Positions 11,630 to 22,810 of a DNA stretch of 30,482 nucleotides are shown in pieces. Origin of the DNA: a virus (Duplodnaviria; Caudoviricetes); the IMG/VR virus record IMGVR_UViG_3300044676_003370, positions 1 through 30,482 of that record. The stretch is one strand, 5' to 3'. Made by a program: the position numbers and the translations under genes. Numbering within the stretch: the stretch's first letter is position 1; every line of letters begins with the position of its first letter. Below the pieces are notes generated by a model. It did no database searches. It worked only from the letters and a program-made list of their open reading frames with translations, and had not been told where the DNA came from.

Positions 11630-11791
11630 ATGGAAGGCCAAGGTGCCGGGGTTCCGTCTGACCTGAGCCCGCTCGGAATGTGGGCGGCTCAGGCGCACGA
11701 GATGTACCTATCTCTGCTGGAAGCCGGATTCACCGGACCCGAAGCCCTCACGATCCTCGTCGGGATGACCCGACAGGCCGACACGGATTGA
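11630..11791 (+). CDS. Small helical phage protein (…HEMYLSLLEAGF…EAL), not in ORF track
   Basis: TACACT 7 nt before ATG; directly precedes portal. Confidence 0.6.
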   Translation: MEGQGAGVPSDLSPLGMWAAQAHEMYLSLLEAGFTGPEALTILVGMTRQADTD

Positions 11792-11802
11792 GTGGGAGAC
11801 GC

Positions 11803-13284
11803 ATGGCACCCCGAGTAGATATGCAAGAACTCGGCACCACTGGCCTGAAGCGCACAAGCGGTTTCATCTACGACGAGTTCCTCACCCGCCTACAAGGCAT
11901 CCAAGGCATCAAAACGTACCGGGAGATGTCGGACAACGACCCCGTCATCGGCGCGGTCCTGTACGCCATCGAGAAAGTCATCACCCGCCTCGAATGGCGC
12001 GTCGACCCGTACAGGGATCAGTCAAAAGACGGCGACCCCGAAGACGCCGACGTGGAGACCGCCGCGTTCATCGAGAGTTGCCTCAACGACATGAGCGACT
12101 CGTGGGATGCGACGCTGTCACAGATCCTGTCGATGATCATTTACGGCTGGTCATTCCACGAGATCGTGTACAAGAAGCGCATCGGCCCCGATCAGAAAGA
12201 CCCCACGAAGCGGTCGAAGTTCAGCGACGGGAAGATCGGCTGGCGCAAGTGGGCGATCCGAGGTCAAGAAACCCTGTATTTGTGGACGTTCGACGACGAC
12301 GGCGGTATTCAAGGGATGCAACAAGTCGACCCGTACACGGGCCACGGCAGAGTTGACATCCCCATCGAGAAGGCGCTGCTGTTCCGCACCACGGCAGCGA
12401 AAAACAATCCCGAAGGCCGCTCCCTGCTCCGCAACGCCTACCGCCCGTGGTGGTTCAAGCGCCGCATCGAGGAGATCGAAGCGATCGGTATCGAACGTGA
12501 CCTAGCCGGTCTGCCGATCGCTTACGTCCCGCCAGAGTATTTGAGTTCCTCCGCGACAACCGAACAGCAAGTCGTGCTCGCGGCGATCAAGCAAATCGTC
12601 ACATCAGTGAAGCGGAACGAAAACGAAGGCATCGTTTTCCCGCAGGTGTACGACGAATCCGGTAAGCCCCTGTTTGACTTGAAACTACTATCGAGCGGCG
12701 GCACTAGGCAGTTCGATATTGACAAGACCATCACTCGCCTCGACCAACGCATCGCCATGAGCGTCTTGTCGGACTTCATTCTGCTCGGGCAGGACCGTGT
12801 CGGTTCGTTCGCGCTCGGCGCTACGAAGATGGACTTGTGGAGCATGTCGGTCGATTCGATCGCTAAGACGATCGCTGACACGGTGAATCAGCACGCTATT
12901 CCCCGCCTGCTGCGGTTGAACGGCATGGATTCGCATCGCCCCCCGACATTGCAGTACAGCGAGGTCGCCCACATCGACCTGACGGAGATCAGCGACTTCA
13001 TCTCGAAGATGGCTGCAGCCGGGGTGCTCGCACCTGACCCGACGCTGGAAGATCATCTGCGGGATCTCGCTGGTTTGCCGCCCGCGAATCATGACGTGGA
13101 CGAGACGGGCGTCGATACGATGTCACCGGAGGACATGAAGGCTTTGATGGCTTTGCCGCCGCAGCAGCGCATCGTCGCCGAGCGGACAGGTATCGTTCCT
13201 GAGAAGCCCGCGTTCCCCGGCGGTAACCCACCGTTCGGTGGCGCCGCACCTGAGCAGGCCGGAGAAGACGAGCCCGAGGAGTAG
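11803..13284 (+). CDS. Portal protein (DUF935/Mu gp29-like)
   Basis: YREMSDND.VI, YGWS.HEIVYK, NNPEGRSLLRNAY..WWFK; position before MuF. Confidence 0.9.
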   Translation: MAPRVDMQELGTTGLKRTSGFIYDEFLTRLQGIQGIKTYREMSDNDPVIGAVLYAIEKVITRLEWRVDPYRDQSKDGDPEDADVETAAFIESCLNDMSDSWDATLSQILSMIIYGWSFHEIVYKKRIGPDQKDPTKRSKFSDGKIGWRKWAIRGQETLYLWTFDDDGGIQGMQQVDPYTGHGRVDIPIEKALLFRTTAAKNNPEGRSLLRNAYRPWWFKRRIEEIEAIGIERDLAGLPIAYVPPEYLSSSATTEQQVVLAAIKQIVTSVKRNENEGIVFPQVYDESGKPLFDLKLLSSGGTRQFDIDKTITRLDQRIAMSVLSDFILLGQDRVGSFALGATKMDLWSMSVDSIAKTIADTVNQHAIPRLLRLNGMDSHRPPTLQYSEVAHIDLTEISDFISKMAAAGVLAPDPTLEDHLRDLAGLPPANHDVDETGVDTMSPEDMKALMALPPQQRIVAERTGIVPEKPAFPGGNPPFGGAAPEQAGEDEPEE

Positions 13285-13287
13285 ACC

Positions 13288-15051
13288 GTGGCGCTGACTA
13301 TCGGTGGGAAGCGTGTCACGGTGCCGGGTGGTAGCGCCCCTGCGACGCCGTTGTCGCCGTTGGAGCGGCTGCTCGTCGACGGCCTGATCATTGTGAACCG
13401 TGAGATCGTGAACGCGATCAACGCGGAATCGTTCGCTGACGCTATCCGCGGCCTCGACCCTGACATGTTCGACCGCTTGTTGAATGAGGCGCTGCGTTGG
13501 GAGGACGTGCGGGAGATCCTCGATAACGCGCTGCGGGGTGTCGTGTTGGACGGTTCGCTGGCGCAGGCGCGTGACATTATCCGCAACAATCCGCGTATTC
13601 AACAAAGCCCGTTCGCTGACTTGCAGTACACGGGTAGACAGTTACCGAGTGGGATTATTCTTCCGAGCGATTTCGCGCCACCGTCACCTGACGTGGAGTT
13701 CGTGATTTCGACTCCGGTTGAGCAGATGTTCAATTATGTGAGTGAAGCGTCGGTGAATTATTCACGGGTCCGCTCGGGTCAGTTGATTCGATCTATCGAC
13801 GAGTCGACGCGCTTGTCTGTTCGTGAGTTGATTACACAAGCGTTCACGGAGCCGCGTTCGGTGGATGACACGGCCCGCCTTATCCGTAGGATCGTTGGTT
13901 TGCATCCTCGGTGGGCTCGCGCTGTTGAACGGTTTCACGACAAGAACGTGCAGGGTCTTATCCGTGATGGCATGTCGAGTTCGCAGGCTCAGAGGCGTGC
14001 TGATGAGATGACAGCGAAGTATCGGGATAAGTTGATTCGCCGTCGCGCTGAGATGATCGCCCGCACGGAAACGCAGCAGGCGTTGAATTTCGGTCGCCAA
14101 ATGTCGTGGGTGGCGTCGGATCGTGCGGGGCTGGTGGACCCTCGGACGATGAAGGAATGGCGTACGGCGCCGCTTGGGAGCCGTTATGGGCCTCCGTGTC
14201 CGACGTGCACGACGTTGCGGGGTACGCGGGTGGCGTGGAATGGGACTTTCGATAATGGGCAGCAGATGCCGCCTGCTCACCCGAATTGTCGTTGTACGGC
14301 GGTGTTGATTCCTCCGTCTCGTGGGTTGAAGGGTTTGCCGTCGCAGGTGTCGACGGAGTCGTGGATTGCTGAGTTGGAGGCGTTGGAGGCTGAGCAGATC
14401 CGCGAGTTGGAGGCGCAGCGGGTCTCGAAGCATAAGGGCGGCGGTCACGATCAGAAATCGCACGGTGCATGGGCGAAGGGCAAGAAACTACGGAATCAAG
14501 ACGCACCGATGAACCCTGAAACGGCGTGGGTTCATGAAGCAACGTGGTATCACGGAACGTCCCGACCCGATCTGGATGTGTTGGATGCGACGGGCAGGAC
14601 ACGCTATCCCGCGCAGGATAGGTATTACGCAATCCGGGGTGACAATTTCGCTACGACGGATAAAGATTTAGCCGCTCAGTATGCGCGTGAGTCAGCGGAC
14701 ATGGATATTGCGGCTGGTGTCGAGGGTGTGCGCCCGACGGTGTATCGAGTTGTGCCGACGTCGGATTATTTCGACCCTGATCCTCACTCGGGTCCGGGGG
14801 GCTGGAATGACGGCCCCAAGGACATGAATGAGGCATTTTTTTTGCACGACAATGGCGCTGGTATTTCTGTGCGTTTCCATGACGTGATGGATATTGCTGG
14901 TGCGTTTGATGCGGAGACTGGCGAGGAGTTGTCGGTCACGAAGATGCTTGAAATGTTGAAGCATCAGCGTGGGAAGCATGATCAAGCCGTTCATGGGGCA
15001 TGGGCCAAAGGCCGTGTTGATGATATTCGGGAGTATCGAGATGGTGTCTGA
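13288..15051 (+). CDS. MuF head morphogenesis protein fused to a C-terminal Arr-like ADP-ribosyltransferase domain
   Basis: AEMIARTET, KEWRT..CPTC, PPAHPNCRC; then WYHGT...FATTD...YA...VYRVVP..DPDP. Confidence 0.85.
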   Translation: MALTIGGKRVTVPGGSAPATPLSPLERLLVDGLIIVNREIVNAINAESFADAIRGLDPDMFDRLLNEALRWEDVREILDNALRGVVLDGSLAQARDIIRNNPRIQQSPFADLQYTGRQLPSGIILPSDFAPPSPDVEFVISTPVEQMFNYVSEASVNYSRVRSGQLIRSIDESTRLSVRELITQAFTEPRSVDDTARLIRRIVGLHPRWARAVERFHDKNVQGLIRDGMSSSQAQRRADEMTAKYRDKLIRRRAEMIARTETQQALNFGRQMSWVASDRAGLVDPRTMKEWRTAPLGSRYGPPCPTCTTLRGTRVAWNGTFDNGQQMPPAHPNCRCTAVLIPPSRGLKGLPSQVSTESWIAELEALEAEQIRELEAQRVSKHKGGGHDQKSHGAWAKGKKLRNQDAPMNPETAWVHEATWYHGTSRPDLDVLDATGRTRYPAQDRYYAIRGDNFATTDKDLAAQYARESADMDIAAGVEGVRPTVYRVVPTSDYFDPDPHSGPGGWNDGPKDMNEAFFLHDNGAGISVRFHDVMDIAGAFDAETGEELSVTKMLEMLKHQRGKHDQAVHGAWAKGRVDDIREYRDGV

Positions 15052-18000
15052 CGTTGTCGTGAAGCATCAACAGGGTTCGCATGATCAGAAAACTCACGGA
15101 GCGTGGGCGACAGGACGTGCGCCTGTCACGCTTGAGGGAACGGAGCAGTTTGGTTGGGCTGCTCAGGAATACATGGAAAACACTCTCGAACTTGATTATT
15201 TCGCGACAGCCGAGGGAGGTGATGGTGCTGGTCAGTTGAAGGCGGCAGTAGCGAGAAGAATAGCGACGCGAATGTCTGACGTTCCTGCTATGGAAATGGC
15301 TGAGGCCCTTGAATTTGCCGATGAGGATACTTATCTGGACGTGAAGTACGCAACGGGAGGGTTCCAAAATTACGCGGAATACCTAGGGGCTAGACGGGCT
15401 GATCTTCCAACTCCCGCTGAAATATGGGTGCAAGACGAGAATAAAGGCTTGTATCGAACACGCGACCATGATGAAGTTGTTGATCGGGTATTTGTTGTGG
15501 AGGGGAGATTAGCCTTCGTGAGTGAACAGGGAATAACATCATGGAAGGGTGGTGGGGAAGCAGCACCCGTTGGCTCAGAGTTAGCGGAACAATATGCCCG
15601 CGAGGTAGTAGTGTCGGAGTTCCTGAGAAATTGGGCTGCTACGTCTAACGGGAATAACCCTGTATCGCTTGCTCTGCAAGAGGCGGCGGCTGCTGAGTTC
15701 GATATCAAAGGTGCTGCTCCGTGGAAAACGACTACAAGTGTTCGTATGGACAAAGATGACATTCTTAGGACTTCGCAGCCAGTGTTACAGAGGTTCGTTC
15801 GCGAGCAATACAACGAGACGCAGGACTTCCTCAAGGGAACAGATGAGGTTGTTTTGTGGCGGGGGTCCACCCGTGCAAAGAGTGACCCTCTAGTTGAGGC
15901 CGGACTGGCGGCGAGGGAAGAAGGAGGAGCGGCTGAGGTAACGGTGCAGACACGGCCTATGAGTTCATGGTCAATTTCCTCGAAAACGGCGGGTTTCTTT
16001 GCACATGACGCGGCGACCAGCGCCGAATCACCCGCAGTCGTGATGAAGGCAACAATCCCTACAAGCAAGATTCTGTCTACCTCTCTGACGGGGTTCGGCT
16101 CCTACAACGAGTCAGAGTTCGTCACGATTGGCTCAACGTTGCCTGCTCAGGTGGCGGCGAGCGACGCTGTAAACGATATGCGTCCTTTTGATTCATTGTT
16201 CAAGGCCGCTGACATTGTCACAAACATCGACAACGACGACGACAACGCAGACTGGATAAAGCCACTCAACTCCGTCATCAAGCATCAACAAGGCGCGAAC
16301 CCACCATCGGCGAGGCCGTACCCGAAAGACCCCGAGGCTGCGATGATCAAGATCGCCCCGGGGTTGAAGCCCGTGTTGAAGCATCAGCGCGGCAAACACG
16401 ATCAGAGGGCGCATGGTCGACGTGACGGATCGGTGTCCCCGTTCTATGACGAGTTAGATCAAGAGCAGCGGGAAGCACTCGAATACTTGATGGGTGACCG
16501 TGCTTTCCCACCGGGGTACACGGATGAAGGTGTGCCGCCGCCGACGATCACTATCAGCGAATCGCTCGGCAACAAGATCCGCTCAGCCCGCAAGAAGATA
16601 AGCGAGTGGCGTGCCGATCGGGAGCGTCGTGCGTTGGCTCGAATGACACCGGATGAGTTGTCTGCGTTGGGTGCCGCGAATAGGGCGCGTGAAGCGTTAC
16701 GGCAAGGGTTCACTCCTGCGATGGCTAAATCAGTTGATCCGGCGTTGCGTGTGTTGTATCGCGTGTTCGGTGATGTGGTGGAGCCGGAGGTGTGGTTCGC
16801 GCTTGTGCAGAATGAGCGCCCGTTGGAGGAGATTGGCGGGCCGCTTGGGCGGCTGCTGGATGACATGCTGGGTGCAGCGTTGCCGGGGCCTGTGATGATC
16901 AAGTTGGCTCCGGGGTTGCGGCCTGTGTTGAAGCATGAGGGTGGGGGGCATGATCAGAAGTCTCACGGGGTGTGGGCTCGTGGCCGTGCTGGTCAGTTCA
17001 GTGAGTGGGGGGATCGTGCTGGGAGGATTCGTGTGGCTCGGGATGTTGGGCCGGATTTGAGTCGTGTTGCTCGGGTGTTTCAGAAGTCGAAGAATTATGA
17101 GTTGGATGAAGTGTATGAAGAAATGGTGTCGGAGCGTTACGGCGACATCATAGATGAGACTGTTGCGGATCGAGAAGCAGATATTCGCTCAATGGGTCAA
17201 GAAGAATTATTAGATGCTTACGGAATACCAGCGGATACTTTTGTTGGAGCAAGTATCAGGAATGGTAAGTCTTACTCGGAAGCAGTTGAGCAGTTCCGTG
17301 ACATGAAACTCTCGGACGTCCGAGGGCAAGTAGAATCGCAAATGCAAACAGACATGTATTTGGAAGTACGGTCGGCTCTCGAAAACGAATTACTTGACGA
17401 CATACGCCCGGGTCTTGAAGAAATGATGAACATTCGGCATCCGGTGACGATAAATGGTATGCCCGACGAAATTGTTACTGAGATTCAGAGCGTTGAGATT
17501 TACGGTCTCGGCTCAACCGAGCCGAAACTGGAAATCACAGGCACCATCAAAAACTCATCGGGAGAATGGATCGGTGAAGTTTTTGAGCGCGAAATCCGAT
17601 TGTCGGAAACATCAACATCCGGCAGGCCACAGTTGGAAGCCGAGAACAAACTGCTACGCATCAACGATGAGCGCTATCAACGTCAAGGATTCGCCACCGC
17701 GTTCAACGAACGCACCTACGACATGTACATCGCCAACGACATTGACACAGTGTCCGTGTACACGGCGTGGGAAGGTGGAGCGGTGTGGGCGAAGCGCGGA
17801 TTCGACTGGAACCCGAATAGGGGAGCCGACAACATAAATGTGGCGGCATATGCCTTGAATTATGTTGCAGACTCCCCGGATGCTTCATCGAAAACTCGTG
17901 ACCGAGCCCAACAAATGCTGGATGATATGGCTGTATCTAGCGGTGTTGACGATGTTGACTTTCCAACACCGATGGAAGTTGTCATGCTCGGATACACACC

Positions 18001-18487
18001 GAACGCCTCATCGTGGGTTGGTCAGGACGCGATGCTCAATCAGAATTGGTACGGCAAAAAATTCCTAACTCCCGACAACCTGAGCGATGTGAAACAACGC
18101 AAAGACGAGTTGAAGGTTATTGCTGAGCAAGACAGGCAAGCGGCGGGGCAGAAGAAACTGTTCACGAGAGATGAACTATCTACATCAGGAGCAAGTGGCA
18201 CTCAACCCCTCCCGAACCTCACGATTGAAGAACTATTGGAGCCCACATTCGGTGGCGTCCCGCGAGTTCGTACACCCGAAGGTGCCGCGAAATATGGGAA
18301 ACCGATCGGGGCACCGATCCGTGCGGTCGAGAAGAAAATGTCACGTTGGGACAAACTGCAGGCGCAGGCCGAGTTCTACGAGAAATGGCTCGAAGAAACT
18401 AACCGGGAGTTGGATGATGATGATCCCGAGGTGGAGCGCGAGTTTTACGCGGCTGCCGCTGAGGCTATGCCGTGGCTCCTCGACTAA
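15041..18487 (+). CDS. Polyvalent protein: R-S-E ADP-ribosyltransferase plus GNAT acetyltransferase
   Basis: LWRG (R 15860), SSWS (15962), NESEF (16109/16115); RYQRQGFA...GGAVWAKRGFDW; start reassigned to ATG 15041. Confidence 0.8.
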   Translation: MVSDVVVKHQQGSHDQKTHGAWATGRAPVTLEGTEQFGWAAQEYMENTLELDYFATAEGGDGAGQLKAAVARRIATRMSDVPAMEMAEALEFADEDTYLDVKYATGGFQNYAEYLGARRADLPTPAEIWVQDENKGLYRTRDHDEVVDRVFVVEGRLAFVSEQGITSWKGGGEAAPVGSELAEQYAREVVVSEFLRNWAATSNGNNPVSLALQEAAAAEFDIKGAAPWKTTTSVRMDKDDILRTSQPVLQRFVREQYNETQDFLKGTDEVVLWRGSTRAKSDPLVEAGLAAREEGGAAEVTVQTRPMSSWSISSKTAGFFAHDAATSAESPAVVMKATIPTSKILSTSLTGFGSYNESEFVTIGSTLPAQVAASDAVNDMRPFDSLFKAADIVTNIDNDDDNADWIKPLNSVIKHQQGANPPSARPYPKDPEAAMIKIAPGLKPVLKHQRGKHDQRAHGRRDGSVSPFYDELDQEQREALEYLMGDRAFPPGYTDEGVPPPTITISESLGNKIRSARKKISEWRADRERRALARMTPDELSALGAANRAREALRQGFTPAMAKSVDPALRVLYRVFGDVVEPEVWFALVQNERPLEEIGGPLGRLLDDMLGAALPGPVMIKLAPGLRPVLKHEGGGHDQKSHGVWARGRAGQFSEWGDRAGRIRVARDVGPDLSRVARVFQKSKNYELDEVYEEMVSERYGDIIDETVADREADIRSMGQEELLDAYGIPADTFVGASIRNGKSYSEAVEQFRDMKLSDVRGQVESQMQTDMYLEVRSALENELLDDIRPGLEEMMNIRHPVTINGMPDEIVTEIQSVEIYGLGSTEPKLEITGTIKNSSGEWIGEVFEREIRLSETSTSGRPQLEAENKLLRINDERYQRQGFATAFNERTYDMYIANDIDTVSVYTAWEGGAVWAKRGFDWNPNRGADNINVAAYALNYVADSPDASSKTRDRAQQMLDDMAVSSGVDDVDFPTPMEVVMLGYTPNASSWVGQDAMLNQNWYGKKFLTPDNLSDVKQRKDELKVIAEQDRQAAGQKKLFTRDELSTSGASGTQPLPNLTIEELLEPTFGGVPRVRTPEGAAKYGKPIGAPIRAVEKKMSRWDKLQAQAEFYEKWLEETNRELDDDDPEVEREFYAAAAEAMPWLLD

Positions 18488-18548: not shown

Positions 18549-21500
18549 ATGCCCGTGACTGATACCGCTACCCGCCTCACGGGTCTTGCAGATGAAGACC
18601 TCATCGCTCTGCATGAGCGGCTCGACCGTCAAGGCGCTGTCGATTCTGCAGTGATTGAGGCACATCATCTTGCGGCGACTGAGTTGCTGAAGCGTGGCCT
18701 AACCCACGGTCATATGAATGACGAGTGGGTTGAGGCTGTCATTCTCGTGGAGAAAGCGCTCGTGAGTTCGGCTGACGAGATCGAGGCGCCGGAGGGGTTT
18801 GAGAAGGCGTGGGGTGAGTCCCTCGCTAATGGCGGCAGCGTGTCAGTGCTGTTGACGACGGACGGTTATGTGTTGAAGGCCGATCCGACGGTGTCGGATG
18901 TTCATCAGGACACGATCATGGGTGGTGGCCGGAAGAAGCCGCGCCGCATCATGCCACCTGAGGACATGGAGAAGACGATCCGCGAGGAGGGCGGCAAGTT
19001 CGTCGTCTATTCGGAGGATTTGCAGCGGAAGTTCGGGACGTATGACACCCGCACTGAGGCTGAGGAGCGGCTACGTCAGATTGAACGGTTCAAGAAGGCT
19101 GACGATTATTCGGTTCCGCGTGCTGTCCAGTCAGCGGCTAAGCAGGCGTTGAAGTGGATTCAGGACGGTAAGGCTGGTGGCGGTTTCACGAGTGTGGGCC
19201 GTAACCGTGCCCGCCAGTTGGCTGACGGCGGCACCGTGTCTCGTGCAACGCTAGTGAAGATGCGGTCGTATTTCGCTCGCCACGCTGTCGACAAGGATGC
19301 AAAGGGTTGGGGGGATAAGAGCAATCCGACGCCGGGGATGGTGGCGTGGTATGCGTGGGGTGGTGACCCGGGTCGAGCGTGGGCTAATCGGGTGCTCGGT
19401 GATGTCGAGAAGTCGTATGAGCCTGAGGATTCGCTGACGGATAAGGAGAAGGCCCTGTATGCGGCTTATGAGGCCGTAGCGGAACGGTACGGGGAGTTTA
19501 CGCCTGCCGAGGCTCACTACATGGCGGGGGAAGATAACCCGTTCAATGGGCAGGGCATGAATTGCGCGAATTGTGTGTTCTTCGAGGGTGGTGGCGGCTG
19601 CGAGATCCTGACGGAGCAGGTGGAGCCTGAGGGGTTGTGCAAGTTGTGGGTGATCCCGCAGGAGTTGATGCGCCACGATGAGCCCGCTGAGAAGGCCGTA
19701 GAGGCCCTAGCGAAATTCACCCTTCCGGGTGGTGCCACCTACGAGTTCAGTGTCCCCGTGTCGGCTGTGGGGCCGCTGACAGCCGTTCCTGAGGTTCCTG
19801 TCGCTAAGCATCAGCAGGGTAAGCATGATCAGGCGTCTCACGGGCGACGCGCTGGCGCTTCCGTGTCGCCGGAGGTCGCTCGGTCGATCATCGAACGGGT
19901 CGGCGAGCAGGGCGGTTTGAGCGTCAGCATGATCGACGGGTCGGAGCCACCGGACGGCTACATGGTCGCCCGCACCGAGGGTGTGAAGCCGTCGATTGTG
20001 AGCGCTGACGAGTTCTACGACGCTGACAGTGGGCCTGCCGCGTTGAGTTCATTCTTGAAGGACAACAAGGCAAATTTGACGGGGGGTGACTACCTCGGGG
20101 TTTGGCATGACACGGATAGCGGTAATGTATTCCTTGATGTATCGCAAAACGTCAAGGACCGTGCCACCGCTGAGCGGCTCGGTAGTGAACGCAATCAGAT
20201 CAGTATTTGGGACGTCATTGAAGGCAAGGAGATAGCGACAGGTGGCACAGGAGAAATCGCAAAAGCCGATTCAGGCGGTGAAGTTGCCGGATCTGTCGAC
20301 GATGACGGACGAGGAGATCGACGAGTTCGCGACGAGTCTGTGGGAGCAGATCAGCCAACAGTCGTAAAGCACGGGCAACCGGGCCGCGACAGTAACTATC
20401 ATCGTAAGCATCCGCATGATCGCGGTGGACCGGGCGGCTCGGGTGAGACCGAGGGCAAGGTGTATCGCACCCGTGACCATAAGCGTGCCATTTCGATGCT
20501 GGCTCGCGGTGAGAAGGTCATCCTTGAATCTGAGGGTGACGTCAACACGTTCCTAGAGAAACTGCATGATTACGCCAGCGACGCCCGCGAGAAGGGCGAG
20601 GACGCAGGCAAACTCGACCTGTGCCGCGTGTCTGTACCGGGCACGAACCTGTTCTGTACAGAGTCGTTGGGTGTGCCTCGTATTGAGATGCCGCAGTTGG
20701 CGGGTAAGCCCGTGAAGGATTCTCCGGCGGACAAGATGCCGAAGGACAAGAACGGCGAGGTGAATGTCGGTGACTTGTTCCGTGAAAGGTTGGAGGCTAA
20801 GGGTGTCGACGTGCAGGACACGGACGTTCCTGCCGCTTCGTTGAAGGCGTCACAGAATGAATTGAAGGGCGCCAACGTGGCGTTCATGATGAGCCCTGAG
20901 GGCCAGAAGGTCGTGAATCTGGAAGACACACGGATCTTCGTTTCGTCGGACGGGTATGTGATCGACGGGCATCACCGTTGGGCCGCGAACGTTGGTCTTG
21001 ACACGAGTGACGGCAAGTTGGGTGACAAGAAGATGAAGGTCACCATGATCGACATGCCGATCAGTGAGGTTCTGGCTGAGGCGAACACCTTCGCTGACGA
21101 TATTGGTATCGCACCGAAGGCCGCTAAGTCGCTCGATGGGCAGATGGAGAAGCACAGGGCGGGTAAGGGTCATGATCAGAAAAGCCACGGCGCGTGGGCT
21201 AAGGGTGGTGGCGAGCAGTACGGCGGCTATGAGTTGACCGAACCGGATAACCCGCCTGCTGAGTCGAAGCGTGGCGCTGATTCGATCGCTGCCGCGAAGG
21301 CTATGCGGGCGAAGGTCGCTGAGGTGGAGCCGCAGATCACTCGTGACATGATCGACGCCGCGAATAAGCATAAGGCGACGATGGTCGGGTTGAAGCATCG
21401 AATGAAGTCGGAGAAGTCTCTGGCTCGCAAGATCGACGATGAGAAGGATCTTGATTTCGGTGGGGATGCTGAGCGGGCTGCAGCGAACATGAACGATGTC

Positions 21501-21905
21501 GCTCGGTACACGATGGAGTACGACAGCGCCGATTACGTCAAGGGTGCTGAGGGTGTCATCGGTGACCTAGAGGGTCAGGGGTATTCGTTGAAGGTGAAGA
21601 ACTATTGGGATGATGGTGACCCGTATCAGGGCATCAACATCGCTGCGGTGCATCCGAATGGGACGCGGTTTGAGTTGCAGTTCCATACGCCTGAATCATC
21701 GGCGGTGAAGGGTAAGATTCACGAGCGGTATCAGACGTACCGTGAGTCGGATGATCCTCAGACGCGGTACAAGGAATACACGGGTATGCGGCGCACTGCC
21801 GAGGACATTACGGTGCCGGAGCCTCGGGAGGCTTTGATATCGATCGGTGAGTTGAAGTCGCAGCCGTTCACCCCCCGACCCGACGCACCCCCGGTTGAGA
21901 TTTAG
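18549..21905 (+). CDS. Polyvalent protein: small head-associated domains, HiPIP-like, SAM-lyase-like(?), ParB/Srx-like, RelA/SpoT-like synthetase
   Basis: CANC..F..C..V...GLC..W; LKASQ...VIDGHHRW; RMKSEKSLARK/NDVARY/YQGIN/FELQFHT. Confidence 0.8.
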   Translation: MPVTDTATRLTGLADEDLIALHERLDRQGAVDSAVIEAHHLAATELLKRGLTHGHMNDEWVEAVILVEKALVSSADEIEAPEGFEKAWGESLANGGSVSVLLTTDGYVLKADPTVSDVHQDTIMGGGRKKPRRIMPPEDMEKTIREEGGKFVVYSEDLQRKFGTYDTRTEAEERLRQIERFKKADDYSVPRAVQSAAKQALKWIQDGKAGGGFTSVGRNRARQLADGGTVSRATLVKMRSYFARHAVDKDAKGWGDKSNPTPGMVAWYAWGGDPGRAWANRVLGDVEKSYEPEDSLTDKEKALYAAYEAVAERYGEFTPAEAHYMAGEDNPFNGQGMNCANCVFFEGGGGCEILTEQVEPEGLCKLWVIPQELMRHDEPAEKAVEALAKFTLPGGATYEFSVPVSAVGPLTAVPEVPVAKHQQGKHDQASHGRRAGASVSPEVARSIIERVGEQGGLSVSMIDGSEPPDGYMVARTEGVKPSIVSADEFYDADSGPAALSSFLKDNKANLTGGDYLGVWHDTDSGNVFLDVSQNVKDRATAERLGSERNQISIWDVIEGKEIATGGTGEIAKADSGGEVAGSVDDDGRGDRRVRDESVGADQPTVVKHGQPGRDSNYHRKHPHDRGGPGGSGETEGKVYRTRDHKRAISMLARGEKVILESEGDVNTFLEKLHDYASDAREKGEDAGKLDLCRVSVPGTNLFCTESLGVPRIEMPQLAGKPVKDSPADKMPKDKNGEVNVGDLFRERLEAKGVDVQDTDVPAASLKASQNELKGANVAFMMSPEGQKVVNLEDTRIFVSSDGYVIDGHHRWAANVGLDTSDGKLGDKKMKVTMIDMPISEVLAEANTFADDIGIAPKAAKSLDGQMEKHRAGKGHDQKSHGAWAKGGGEQYGGYELTEPDNPPAESKRGADSIAAAKAMRAKVAEVEPQITRDMIDAANKHKATMVGLKHRMKSEKSLARKIDDEKDLDFGGDAERAAANMNDVARYTMEYDSADYVKGAEGVIGDLEGQGYSLKVKNYWDDGDPYQGINIAAVHPNGTRFELQFHTPESSAVKGKIHERYQTYRESDDPQTRYKEYTGMRRTAEDITVPEPREALISIGELKSQPFTPRPDAPPVEI
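20242..20367 (+). CDS. Nested +1-frame 41-aa ORF (MAQEKSQKPIQAVKLPDLSTMTDEEIDEFATSLWEQISQQS)
   Basis: RBS AAGGAG 20226-31; 34/41 codons end in G/C versus about 14/42 in the host frame (hand count). Confidence 0.6.
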   Translation: MAQEKSQKPIQAVKLPDLSTMTDEEIDEFATSLWEQISQQS

Positions 21906-21943: not shown

Positions 21944-22810
21944 ATGATGCCACAGCGGTACTTCATCAAAGTAGACAACGCTGGCGCTCCCCTAACCCTG
22001 TTCCGGTTCTTCATCGACGATTCCACCGAACAAGCGTTCGAGCAGGAATGGCAAAACGGCTGGGAAGAAAGCACACGGCTCGGCGGCTACCTCATCAGCG
22101 GCGACCCACGGATAGCGGAGATCCCGAAAGACAAAGCCGAAGAACTGTTCCCCAATTCAATCACAGCCGAAAACGCCACACTCATGTCGAAACAGGTCGA
22201 GGAACGGATGTTCACCCTCGGCCCCATGTACATCCCCAACGTCAAAGACGCACACGCCGAATGGACCGATCCCGAGGAGTTGCAGAAAGCCGTATGGGAG
22301 TACGTCAAGAAAGGCGACCGCCGTATCCGCTTGCAGCACGATAAAAGCGTTGTCGCTGGCGAATGGCTAGAGATCATGGCGTGGCCGTATGAGGTCGAAG
22401 CCCCCATCATCATGAAAGACGCCTCACAAGGGAACATGAAGTTCCCCGCTAACACGGTGTTCCTTGGCGTGAAGTGGGAGCCGTGGGCGTGGCAGATGAT
22501 CAAGGAAGGCAAACTGCGTGGGTACTCGATTGGTGGGCGTGCCGAGCGGCTATTGGCGGATCTTCCTGAGGAGTACGTTGGGAAGGCTCAGGCCCCGTTC
22601 GAGGACGCTATTCGTATCGAAGCCGACGATGTCGCACCTCCGCCAATCGTGGCAGAAGCAGATTTGGAGGATAGAATCGCAGTGGCGGTGGCTGAGGCGA
22701 TGAAATCCATCAACCCCGTCGTGAATGTCGTCATGCCGGAGGACAAGCCCAAAGTACGTCGAGTTGAGCGGGATGAAAATGGCAACATCCTGCGCGTGAT
22801 TGAGGAGTAG
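21944..22810 (+). CDS. XkdF-like phage head serine protease with an extra N-terminal ~80-aa domain
   Basis: LGPMYIP..DAH.EW...EELQKA, IRLQHD, W..IKEGKLRGYSIGG. Confidence 0.85.
   Translation: MMPQRYFIKVDNAGAPLTLFRFFIDDSTEQAFEQEWQNGWEESTRLGGYLISGDPRIAEIPKDKAEELFPNSITAENATLMSKQVEERMFTLGPMYIPNVKDAHAEWTDPEELQKAVWEYVKKGDRRIRLQHDKSVVAGEWLEIMAWPYEVEAPIIMKDASQGNMKFPANTVFLGVKWEPWAWQMIKEGKLRGYSIGGRAERLLADLPEEYVGKAQAPFEDAIRIEADDVAPPPIVAEADLEDRIAVAVAEAMKSINPVVNVVMPEDKPKVRRVERDENGNILRVIEE

What the first reader, a model, noticed from the sequence alone, without database searches (positions are those of the whole stretch)
20226..20367. Hidden gene nested in +1 frame inside a polyprotein linker, directly after an effector domain
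Seen: the host-frame linker ADSGGEVAGSVDDDGRGDRRVRDESVGADQPT looks like off-frame text (about 14/42 codons end G/C). The +1 frame has RBS AAGGAG, GTG 20242, 34/41 G/C-ending codons and an acidic amphipathic helix (DLSTMTDEEIDEFATSLWEQI). It stops exactly at the next tag's Lys codon. Inference: a toxin plus downstream immunity gene pair was captured whole into the polyprotein, so the antidote is translated separately (stays cytoplasmic) while the host frame reads through.
Basis: partly seen in the sequence, partly recalled or inferred. Interest (0 to 1): 0.8.

Follow-up and report, generated by a model that had tools for sequence, protein, structure and literature searches.

The report
Partner gene hidden in phage polyprotein
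A conserved 41-codon gene lies one base out of frame inside a spacer of a large multi-domain phage protein, always directly behind the same unnamed domain, and likely makes a small separate inhibitor of that domain while the large protein reads through the same DNA as filler that would be cut away later.

Summary
The nested gene is real. The window is a phage head module; ORF 18549-21905 is a chain of modules separated by KH-x-HDQ tags. The +1 ORF 20242-20367 has the stated SD, GTG and codon bias. Of 107 distinct junctions behind relatives of the upstream domain, 93 carry it nested, 11 free-standing (host frame stops), 2 are cut by contig ends and 1 is broken. In nested copies selection acts on the +1 frame (pN/pS 0.12-0.17, host frame 2.5-2.9). 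Start codon and SD shift together, and the host frame is kept open (about 1 of 36 expected by chance). The peptide follows the upstream domain, not the downstream module (14 kinds among 35), and is fused in frame to the domain in one protein. A hydrophobic-x-Lys motif flanks the filler on both sides, possibly protease sites. Not shown: translation, binding, toxicity. The domain folds confidently but matches no solved structure; a SAM-lyase resemblance is weak. Four cultured-phage relatives lack the partner. Verdict: nesting confirmed, partnership likely, inhibitor role about 60%. A new variant of phage effector-immunity pairing.

The parts
18549..21905 (+). Host polyprotein, 1118 aa, modules separated by KH-type tags, in a phage head module
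   Evidence: (phrog_2859, phrog_17808, phrog_7625)
19806..19844 (+). Tag (hydrophobic-x-K then KH..G.HDQ..HG) before the partner domain; putative protease and packaging signal (inferred)
   Evidence: 9 of 9 KH tags in the three window polyproteins are preceded by hydrophobic-x-K
19851..20252 (+). Partner domain, about 134 aa, unnamed phage family ending in Q-x-S-I-W-D ... T-G-G-T-G; putative effector
   Evidence: 1572 representatives at E<=1e-3; pLDDT 94; no clear PDB fold; 23 phage structural relatives
20226..20231 (+). Shine-Dalgarno AAGGAG formed from the domain's Lys-Glu codons
   Evidence: covaries with start position
20242..20367 (+). Nested +1-frame gene, 41 aa: short strand, L-P-D-x-S-x-M-T-D-E-E-I-D motif and an amphipathic helix
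20256..20264 (+). Host-frame Ile-Ala-Lys (K572), hydrophobic-x-K motif right after the domain; putative cleavage site
   Evidence: 25 of 36 nested copies vs 7 of 144 control windows; 50 of 54 representatives with a downstream KH tag vs 14 of 44 without
20265..20366 (+). Host-frame shadow linker: unconserved in amino acids, kept free of stops
20367..21149 (+). Next tag (K607) and downstream module (V-I-D-G-H-H-R motif; ParB-like label is recalled, no Pfam hit); varies among relatives
21150..21905 (+). Last tag and small-alarmone-synthetase-like (RelA/SpoT) module
   Evidence: 8vx3 SaSAS, E 1.7e-15
21944..22810 (+). XkdF-type prohead protease gene, candidate cutter of the tags (inferred)
   Evidence: PF14550, E 9.6e-13
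11680..15051 (+). Portal gene and MuF-domain gene (the latter with two tags), defining the head-module context

Best explanation
A real 41-codon gene is nested in the +1 frame of a phage head-module polyprotein directly behind an unnamed domain, and it likely encodes a separately translated inhibitor of that domain, which would keep the domain quiet in the cell making virions and be left behind when the polyprotein is likely packaged. Shown: own SD and start built from the domain's last codons; purifying selection on the +1 frame; selection to keep the host frame open; tight linkage to the upstream domain in nested, free-standing and in-frame-fused layouts. Inferred: the tag-domain-partner cassette can sit mid-polyprotein only because the host frame is cleared of stops; the XkdF protease cuts after hydrophobic-x-Lys on both sides of the filler, freeing a clean domain; the untagged peptide is not packaged, so the domain acts only in the next host. 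The domain's activity is unknown.
For: Frame-specific selection over 18 core codons, 65 unique nested cores: +1 pN/pS 0.12 and 0.17 vs host 2.85 and 2.53 for close pairs; the upstream domain shows the reverse (0.20, 0.17 in host frame). Control: of 11 clusters of SD-preceded nested alt-frame ORFs printed from the loci, only this one varies most at its own third position. 93 nested, 11 free-standing of 107 junctions; 17 other stand-alone called proteins. Initiation signals covary: 10 of 11 copies lacking the downstream start have upstream GTG plus SD, 0 of 33 with it do; 28 of 28 with GGAGG on the Gly-Gly codons have a start 3-4 codons on. Host-stop-making T: 0 of 357 sites in nested vs 34 of 99 in free copies; 1.1 of 36 expected open by chance. 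Downstream modules fall into 14 clusters among 35, and the peptide HMM never hit a locus twice. In-frame fusion to the domain in P0132 (E 2.3e-5). Host-frame shadow detectable in 65 of 108 read-through representatives vs 0 of 108 shuffled and 0 of 89 downstream controls. Neighbouring modules are conflict enzymes (SAS-like; Zeta toxin in L009/L012). [quoted passage not shown]
Against: No translation or toxicity data; the one RNA run covers only 20333-20470 and 20511-20600. The domain has no assigned activity. 4 of 4 cultured-phage relatives examined lack the partner, including one inside a virion protein, P60 gp34; 2 of 3 cellular-genome loci show none by eye; 10 of 28 more distant junctions have no HMM hit, and 11 of 80 loci were dropped for lack of an anchor. 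L105 has a premature stop. Domain and peptide are both net acidic (-11 and -5 here; medians -5 and -2), so there is no simple charge complementarity. Sequence pairs are not independent; the 10 upstream-start copies form one clade. The 0 of 357 count is zero by construction; the chance expectation carries that argument. The hydrophobic-x-Lys motif could partly be a by-product of Ser-x-Lys in the +1 frame.
Confidence: 0.6

Rival explanations
1. The nested peptide is a real partner of the domain but not an inhibitor: a folding chaperone, activating subunit or adaptor, possibly packaged with it.
For: All linkage and selection data fit any obligate partner; in-frame fusion in P0132 and weakly in L247/L250 is awkward for an inhibitor meant to be left behind; toxicity is not shown.
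Against: Stand-alone genes of the family in cultured phages have no partner (4 of 4), so the fold does not need it; separate initiation is kept even when nested, although in-frame fusion is available and rare.
Confidence: 0.22
2. The +1 frame is reached by programmed ribosomal frameshifting, giving a truncated domain-peptide fusion that tunes how much full polyprotein is made.
For: A-rich runs near the start of the +1 ORF in many copies; natural fusions exist; P0106 shows a frame switch in its tail, which may be an assembly error.
Against: SD and start codon move together; in free-standing copies the host frame stops after 6 codons and the small ORF keeps SD and start; most copies have a +1 stop a few codons upstream; no conserved slippery site seen.
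Confidence: 0.07
3. The peptide serves the downstream module or head assembly in general, and its position behind the domain is historical.
For: In L128 it is fused to the next tagged module; antitoxins often precede toxins (general knowledge).
Against: Downstream modules are of 14 kinds among 35; no second copy behind any other module in the loci. Loci were selected by the domain, so partner genes without the domain were not surveyed.
Confidence: 0.07
4. The +1 ORF is a dead relic or chance pattern and only the host linker matters.
For: One premature stop (L105); no expression data.
Against: pN/pS 0.12 in the closest pairs, conserved SD and start, one break in 107 junctions.
Confidence: 0.02

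Closest known systems
MuF polymorphic toxins with downstream immunity ORFs (PMC5576092, passages)
   Same: Phage head module, variable conflict domains (RelA-like among them), small ORF right behind the domain.
   Different: The domain is internal, in a tagged polyprotein without a MuF domain; the small ORF is nested out of frame and read through; the domain is of no known toxin family.
Polyvalent proteins of phages (PMC5512222, passages)
   Same: Many conflict domains in one chain, proposed to be packaged, injected and released by peptidases, including assemblin-like ones.
   Different: No Pfam polyvalent domain in this ORF; repeated KH tags; no nested partner genes in the passages seen.
Two-component spanins Rz/Rz1 (PMC6139136, abstract)
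   Same: Partner gene in embedded, overlapped and separated layouts within one family.
   Different: Lysis proteins, with both frames coding functional structure; here the host frame is disposable filler and the peptide has no cysteine, so no lipobox.
ShiLan domain, out-of-frame HNH in phage methylases (PMC11855218, abstract)
   Same: Out-of-frame gene with GTG start; host frame stop-free and read as a loop.
   Different: A selfish homing nuclease inserted into an unrelated gene; here a 41-aa partner co-inherited with the neighbouring domain.
Phage SAM lyases, T3 gp0.3 and Svi3-3 (PMC7877911, PMC12255297, passages)
   Same: Small alpha/beta phage domain; conserved Gly, aromatic, acidic and Gln (G83, W85, D96, Q116) echo G56, Y58, E69, Q104; relatives sit among small genes near genome ends.
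   Different: Structural scores are weak (6zm9 Z 2.7, rmsd 3.5 over 69; 7ock_L Z 2.8, rmsd 6.0 over 86); profile comparison gives probability 0.05%. The residue mapping is by eye.

Membership tests
MuF toxin-immunity pair | MuF domain in the same polypeptide as the toxin | tested here: not met
   MuF is in ORF 13288-15051; no Pfam hit in ORF 18549-21905
MuF toxin-immunity pair | Located in the phage head module | tested here: met
   portal, MuF, protease, capsid
MuF toxin-immunity pair | Small ORF (<150 aa) directly behind the effector domain | tested here: met
   104 of 107 junctions intact, nested or free
MuF toxin-immunity pair | Domain toxic and neutralised by the small ORF | not testable with these tools
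   needs expression and rescue
MuF toxin-immunity pair | Encoded by a temperate phage | not tested
   record is about 51% complete
Polyvalent proteins | Several conflict-type domains in one chain | tested here: met
   SAS-like module; Zeta and weak ART-PolyVal in relatives
Polyvalent proteins | Hallmark MPTase/LPD domains | tested here: inconclusive
   no Pfam hit in either window polyprotein at E<=0.01
Polyvalent proteins | Packaged, injected and proteolytically processed | not testable with these tools
   only inferred from tags and the adjacent XkdF gene
Embedded gene of Rz/Rz1-type layout | Wholly inside another ORF, +1 frame, own initiation signals; separated forms exist | tested here: met
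Spanin Rz1 | Lipoprotein with lipobox cysteine | tested here: not met
   no cysteine in the 41 aa
ShiLan-type hidden HNH | Out-of-frame ORF encodes an HNH nuclease | tested here: not met
   41 aa, no Pfam hit
SAM lyase (upstream domain) | PII/ferredoxin-like fold | tested here: inconclusive
   Z 2.7-2.8, among unrelated rows
SAM lyase (upstream domain) | Conserved Gly, acidic residue and Gln of the active site | tested here: inconclusive
   G83, D96, Q116 at least 90% conserved, but hhalign finds no alignment
SAM lyase (upstream domain) | Trimer that cleaves SAM or SAM-AMP | not testable with these tools
   needs an assay

The most novel reading that the evidence does not exclude
Phage cargo polyproteins solve the effector-antidote problem by overprinting: a widespread family of capsid-delivered enzymes of an undescribed fold (possibly remote SAM-lyase kin) carries its inhibitor as a +1-frame gene inside a sacrificial, protease-excised linker. 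That makes tag-effector-inhibitor a stop-free cassette that can be shuffled into any polyprotein position, and annotation misses the inhibitor wherever it is nested.
Probability: 0.45. Interest if true: 0.85.

Novelty: new variant of a known kind. Interest (0 to 1): 0.72.

Why it matters
It shows how an internal module of a phage polyprotein can keep a separately made partner. It also gives a rule for finding missed genes: Arg/Gly/Asp-rich linkers between a domain and a KH tag are shadows of +1 genes (65 of 108 read-through representatives score as such). Free-standing, nested and fused forms in one family make overlap evolution directly testable. The peptide is a ready tool for finding the activity of a large unnamed phage domain family (1572 representatives).

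Tried and rejected
Complex prediction of domain plus peptide was not available, so binding is untested. A single-sequence fold of the natural fusion P0132 had mean pLDDT 42 and is uninformative. No fold match for the domain: Foldseek PDB 0 hits at E<=1e-3, VIA wide best Z 4.5, VIA second look best Z 3.7; this does not show a new fold. SAM-lyase idea (recalled lead): hhalign against T3 alone and against five T3-like proteins found nothing. PDB sequence searches with domain and peptide profiles gave nothing significant (best peptide E 0.018). Pfam: none for the domain; PHROGs: only weak phrog_10757 for the peptide, 16 of 44 members. The ESM Atlas gave only 'hypothetical' clusters for the domain and no hit for the peptide. 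tblastn of the peptide in cultured phages: no match. RNA run X20 holds only a small share and does not cover the gene start. Assembly frameshift artefact: rejected. Other nested genes in these loci: none among 11 clusters. Literature searches listed no paper describing a nested partner gene in a phage cargo polyprotein; the library lacks most subscription journals, and no supplements were read.

Full report
Context. The window is a partial virus record (51% complete). It holds portal (11680), MuF (13288), two long ORFs without Pfam hits (14969, 18549), an XkdF-type protease (21944) and a capsid gene (27362). The three large ORFs carry nine KH-type tags, all preceded by hydrophobic-x-Lys. The last module of ORF 18549 matches a small alarmone synthetase (8vx3, E 1.7e-15). 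Runs holding this DNA are mostly estuary metagenomes (20 runs, 15 studies). One nested relative lies in an actinobacterial MAG (L173), a weak host hint because the contig may be mis-binned.

Observation. High +1-frame GC3 alone is common in this ORF. The inversion is what is unusual: of 10 SD-preceded nested alternative ORFs in 8 large genes, only this one inverts so strongly and has homologues. Contigs of two DNA runs cross the region without gaps.

Relatives. Scans with the domain gave 1 locus, then the best 80 of 154 viral and the best 80 of 101 metagenome hits. Two loci lacked the anchor; the rest, with the window, gave 107 distinct junctions: 93 nested, 11 with a host stop inside the small ORF, 2 cut by contig ends, 1 with a premature +1 stop (L105). 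A profile of 44 non-redundant peptides hit 161 of 163 sequences and none twice; this is partly circular and includes duplicates. A later scan with distant members gave 28 new junctions: 18 with a +1 hit (14 nested, 4 free) and 10 without; three of those show plausible diverged +1 ORFs by eye, and 11 of the 80 loci were dropped for lack of an anchor. Seventeen other proteins called as stand-alone genes match the peptide profile. P0132 has it fused in frame to the domain; L128 has it fused to the next tagged module.

Which frame is selected. Over 18 core codons in 65 unique nested cores, pN/pS is 0.12, 0.17, 0.36 and 0.47 in the +1 frame across four divergence bins, and 2.85, 2.53, 1.42 and 1.38 in the host frame. 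The adjacent domain shows the reverse. Pairs are not independent. As a control, of 11 printed clusters of nested SD-preceded ORFs in these loci, only this one varies most at its own third position.

Independent initiation. The domain's terminal codons supply the signals in two ways. Either GGAGG on the Gly-Gly codons with a start 3-4 codons on (28 of 28), or GTG on the first Gly with an SD upstream (10 of the 11 copies lacking the downstream start, 0 of 33 having it). The ten form one clade, and the one free member of that clade (L091) uses the other layout, so this reflects few events.

Read-through is maintained. A T-ending +1 codon before AA, AG or GA stops the host frame. Such T occurs at 34 of 99 sites in free copies and at 40% of equivalent sites in the domain, so about 1.1 of 36 nested copies would be open by chance. 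Nested and free states change 6 times on the tree, at least 3 forced; clustering is not clearly better than shuffles (51 of 500). In 149 representatives plus five earlier hits, 31 end at the domain, 15 lack the anchor and 108 continue. Of the 108, 65 score as shadows of the nested gene, against 0 of 108 shuffled and 0 of 89 downstream controls.

Whose partner. Modules downstream of 35 nested copies form 14 clusters, including Zeta toxin and weak RelA/SpoT and ART-PolyVal matches; the upstream domain is constant. Loci were chosen by that domain, so the converse was not surveyed. Against an obligate need: four cultured-phage relatives (P60 gp34 internal virion protein, Madraxi 108, Dagobah, phiKSUM) have no partner. 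That fits an inhibitor needed only for late-made cargo in three stand-alone cases, but P60 is a counter-example.

The filler. Hydrophobic-x-Lys follows the domain in 25 of 36 nested copies (7 of 144 control windows) and in 50 of 54 representatives with a downstream tag (14 of 44 without). The same motif precedes the tags, so the shadow peptide may be cut out at both ends by the XkdF protease. This is inference; one search listed no paper on that protease's specificity, and the motif may partly follow from the +1 sequence.

The domain. The model is confident (pLDDT 94). It matches 23 predicted phage proteins, none named for this domain, and no solved fold clearly. Conserved G83, W85, D96 and Q116 resemble SAM-lyase catalytic residues (PMC7877911, passages), and two SAM lyases appear weakly in the fold lists, but profile comparison is blank. 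I put that at about 15-20%. Calling the domain an effector rests on context.

Comparison. It works like a MuF or polyvalent effector with a downstream immunity gene (PMC5576092, PMC5512222, passages), arranged like Rz/Rz1 (PMC6139136, abstract) or ShiLan (PMC11855218, abstract). It is a member of none by the tests run. An earlier AI note (e1-5993863) reports a similar 61-codon case in another genome; it is unchecked and not counted as support.

Verdict. Nested gene real, about 0.97; partner of the upstream domain, about 0.85; inhibitor left behind at packaging, about 0.6. New variant of a known kind; interest 0.72.

Noticed in passing
window 21944-22189: The XkdF protease gene has an 82-aa N-terminal extension of no known family directly behind the SAS-like module and ending near a Met-Ser-Lys motif; possibly that module's antitoxin fused to the protease (inferred; no Pfam hit).
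   Followed up: partly
window 18338-18487: ORF 14969 ends with an acidic 49-aa stretch starting at a Met right after V-E-K-K; it looks like a formerly separate small gene fused in frame.
   Followed up: no
window 15059-16280: Module with ADP-ribosyltransferase-like motifs by eye (label recalled; no Pfam or PDB hit), followed after an L-F-K-A site by a short acidic segment resembling the N-termini of P0002/P0003; possibly an in-frame partner.
   Followed up: partly
window 19539-19660: Four-cysteine segment in the polyprotein's first module with a weak HiPIP hit (E 0.008, below cut-off).
   Followed up: no
L071, L080, L082, L120 (host stop 25 codons after the Gly-Gly anchor): The host frame runs halfway through the small gene before stopping; in L071 and L080 the next tag lies in the third frame. 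Possible intermediates between nested and free layouts.
   Followed up: partly
L247, L250 directly after the domain: No +1 ORF, but a weak in-frame resemblance to the peptide (5-8 bits): possibly further fusions.
   Followed up: partly
P0106 vs P0168: The tail of P0106 begins as shadow text and ends identical to the tail of stand-alone peptide P0168: a frame switch, either assembly error or natural.
   Followed up: no
P0063, P0069, P0093, P0108, P0112, P0118, P0130, P0133 tails: Other tag types (R-S-E-A-G-R-Y-A-A; A-R-A-P-K-G..G-G-x-W) follow shadow-like linkers, so the cassette may work with several tag families.
   Followed up: no
L163 (phage P60 gp34) 2501-2839: The domain sits inside a podophage internal virion protein with D96 and D121 replaced and no nested gene.
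   Followed up: partly
L105 near 950: Single premature TAG in the nested gene; natural null or assembly error.
   Followed up: no
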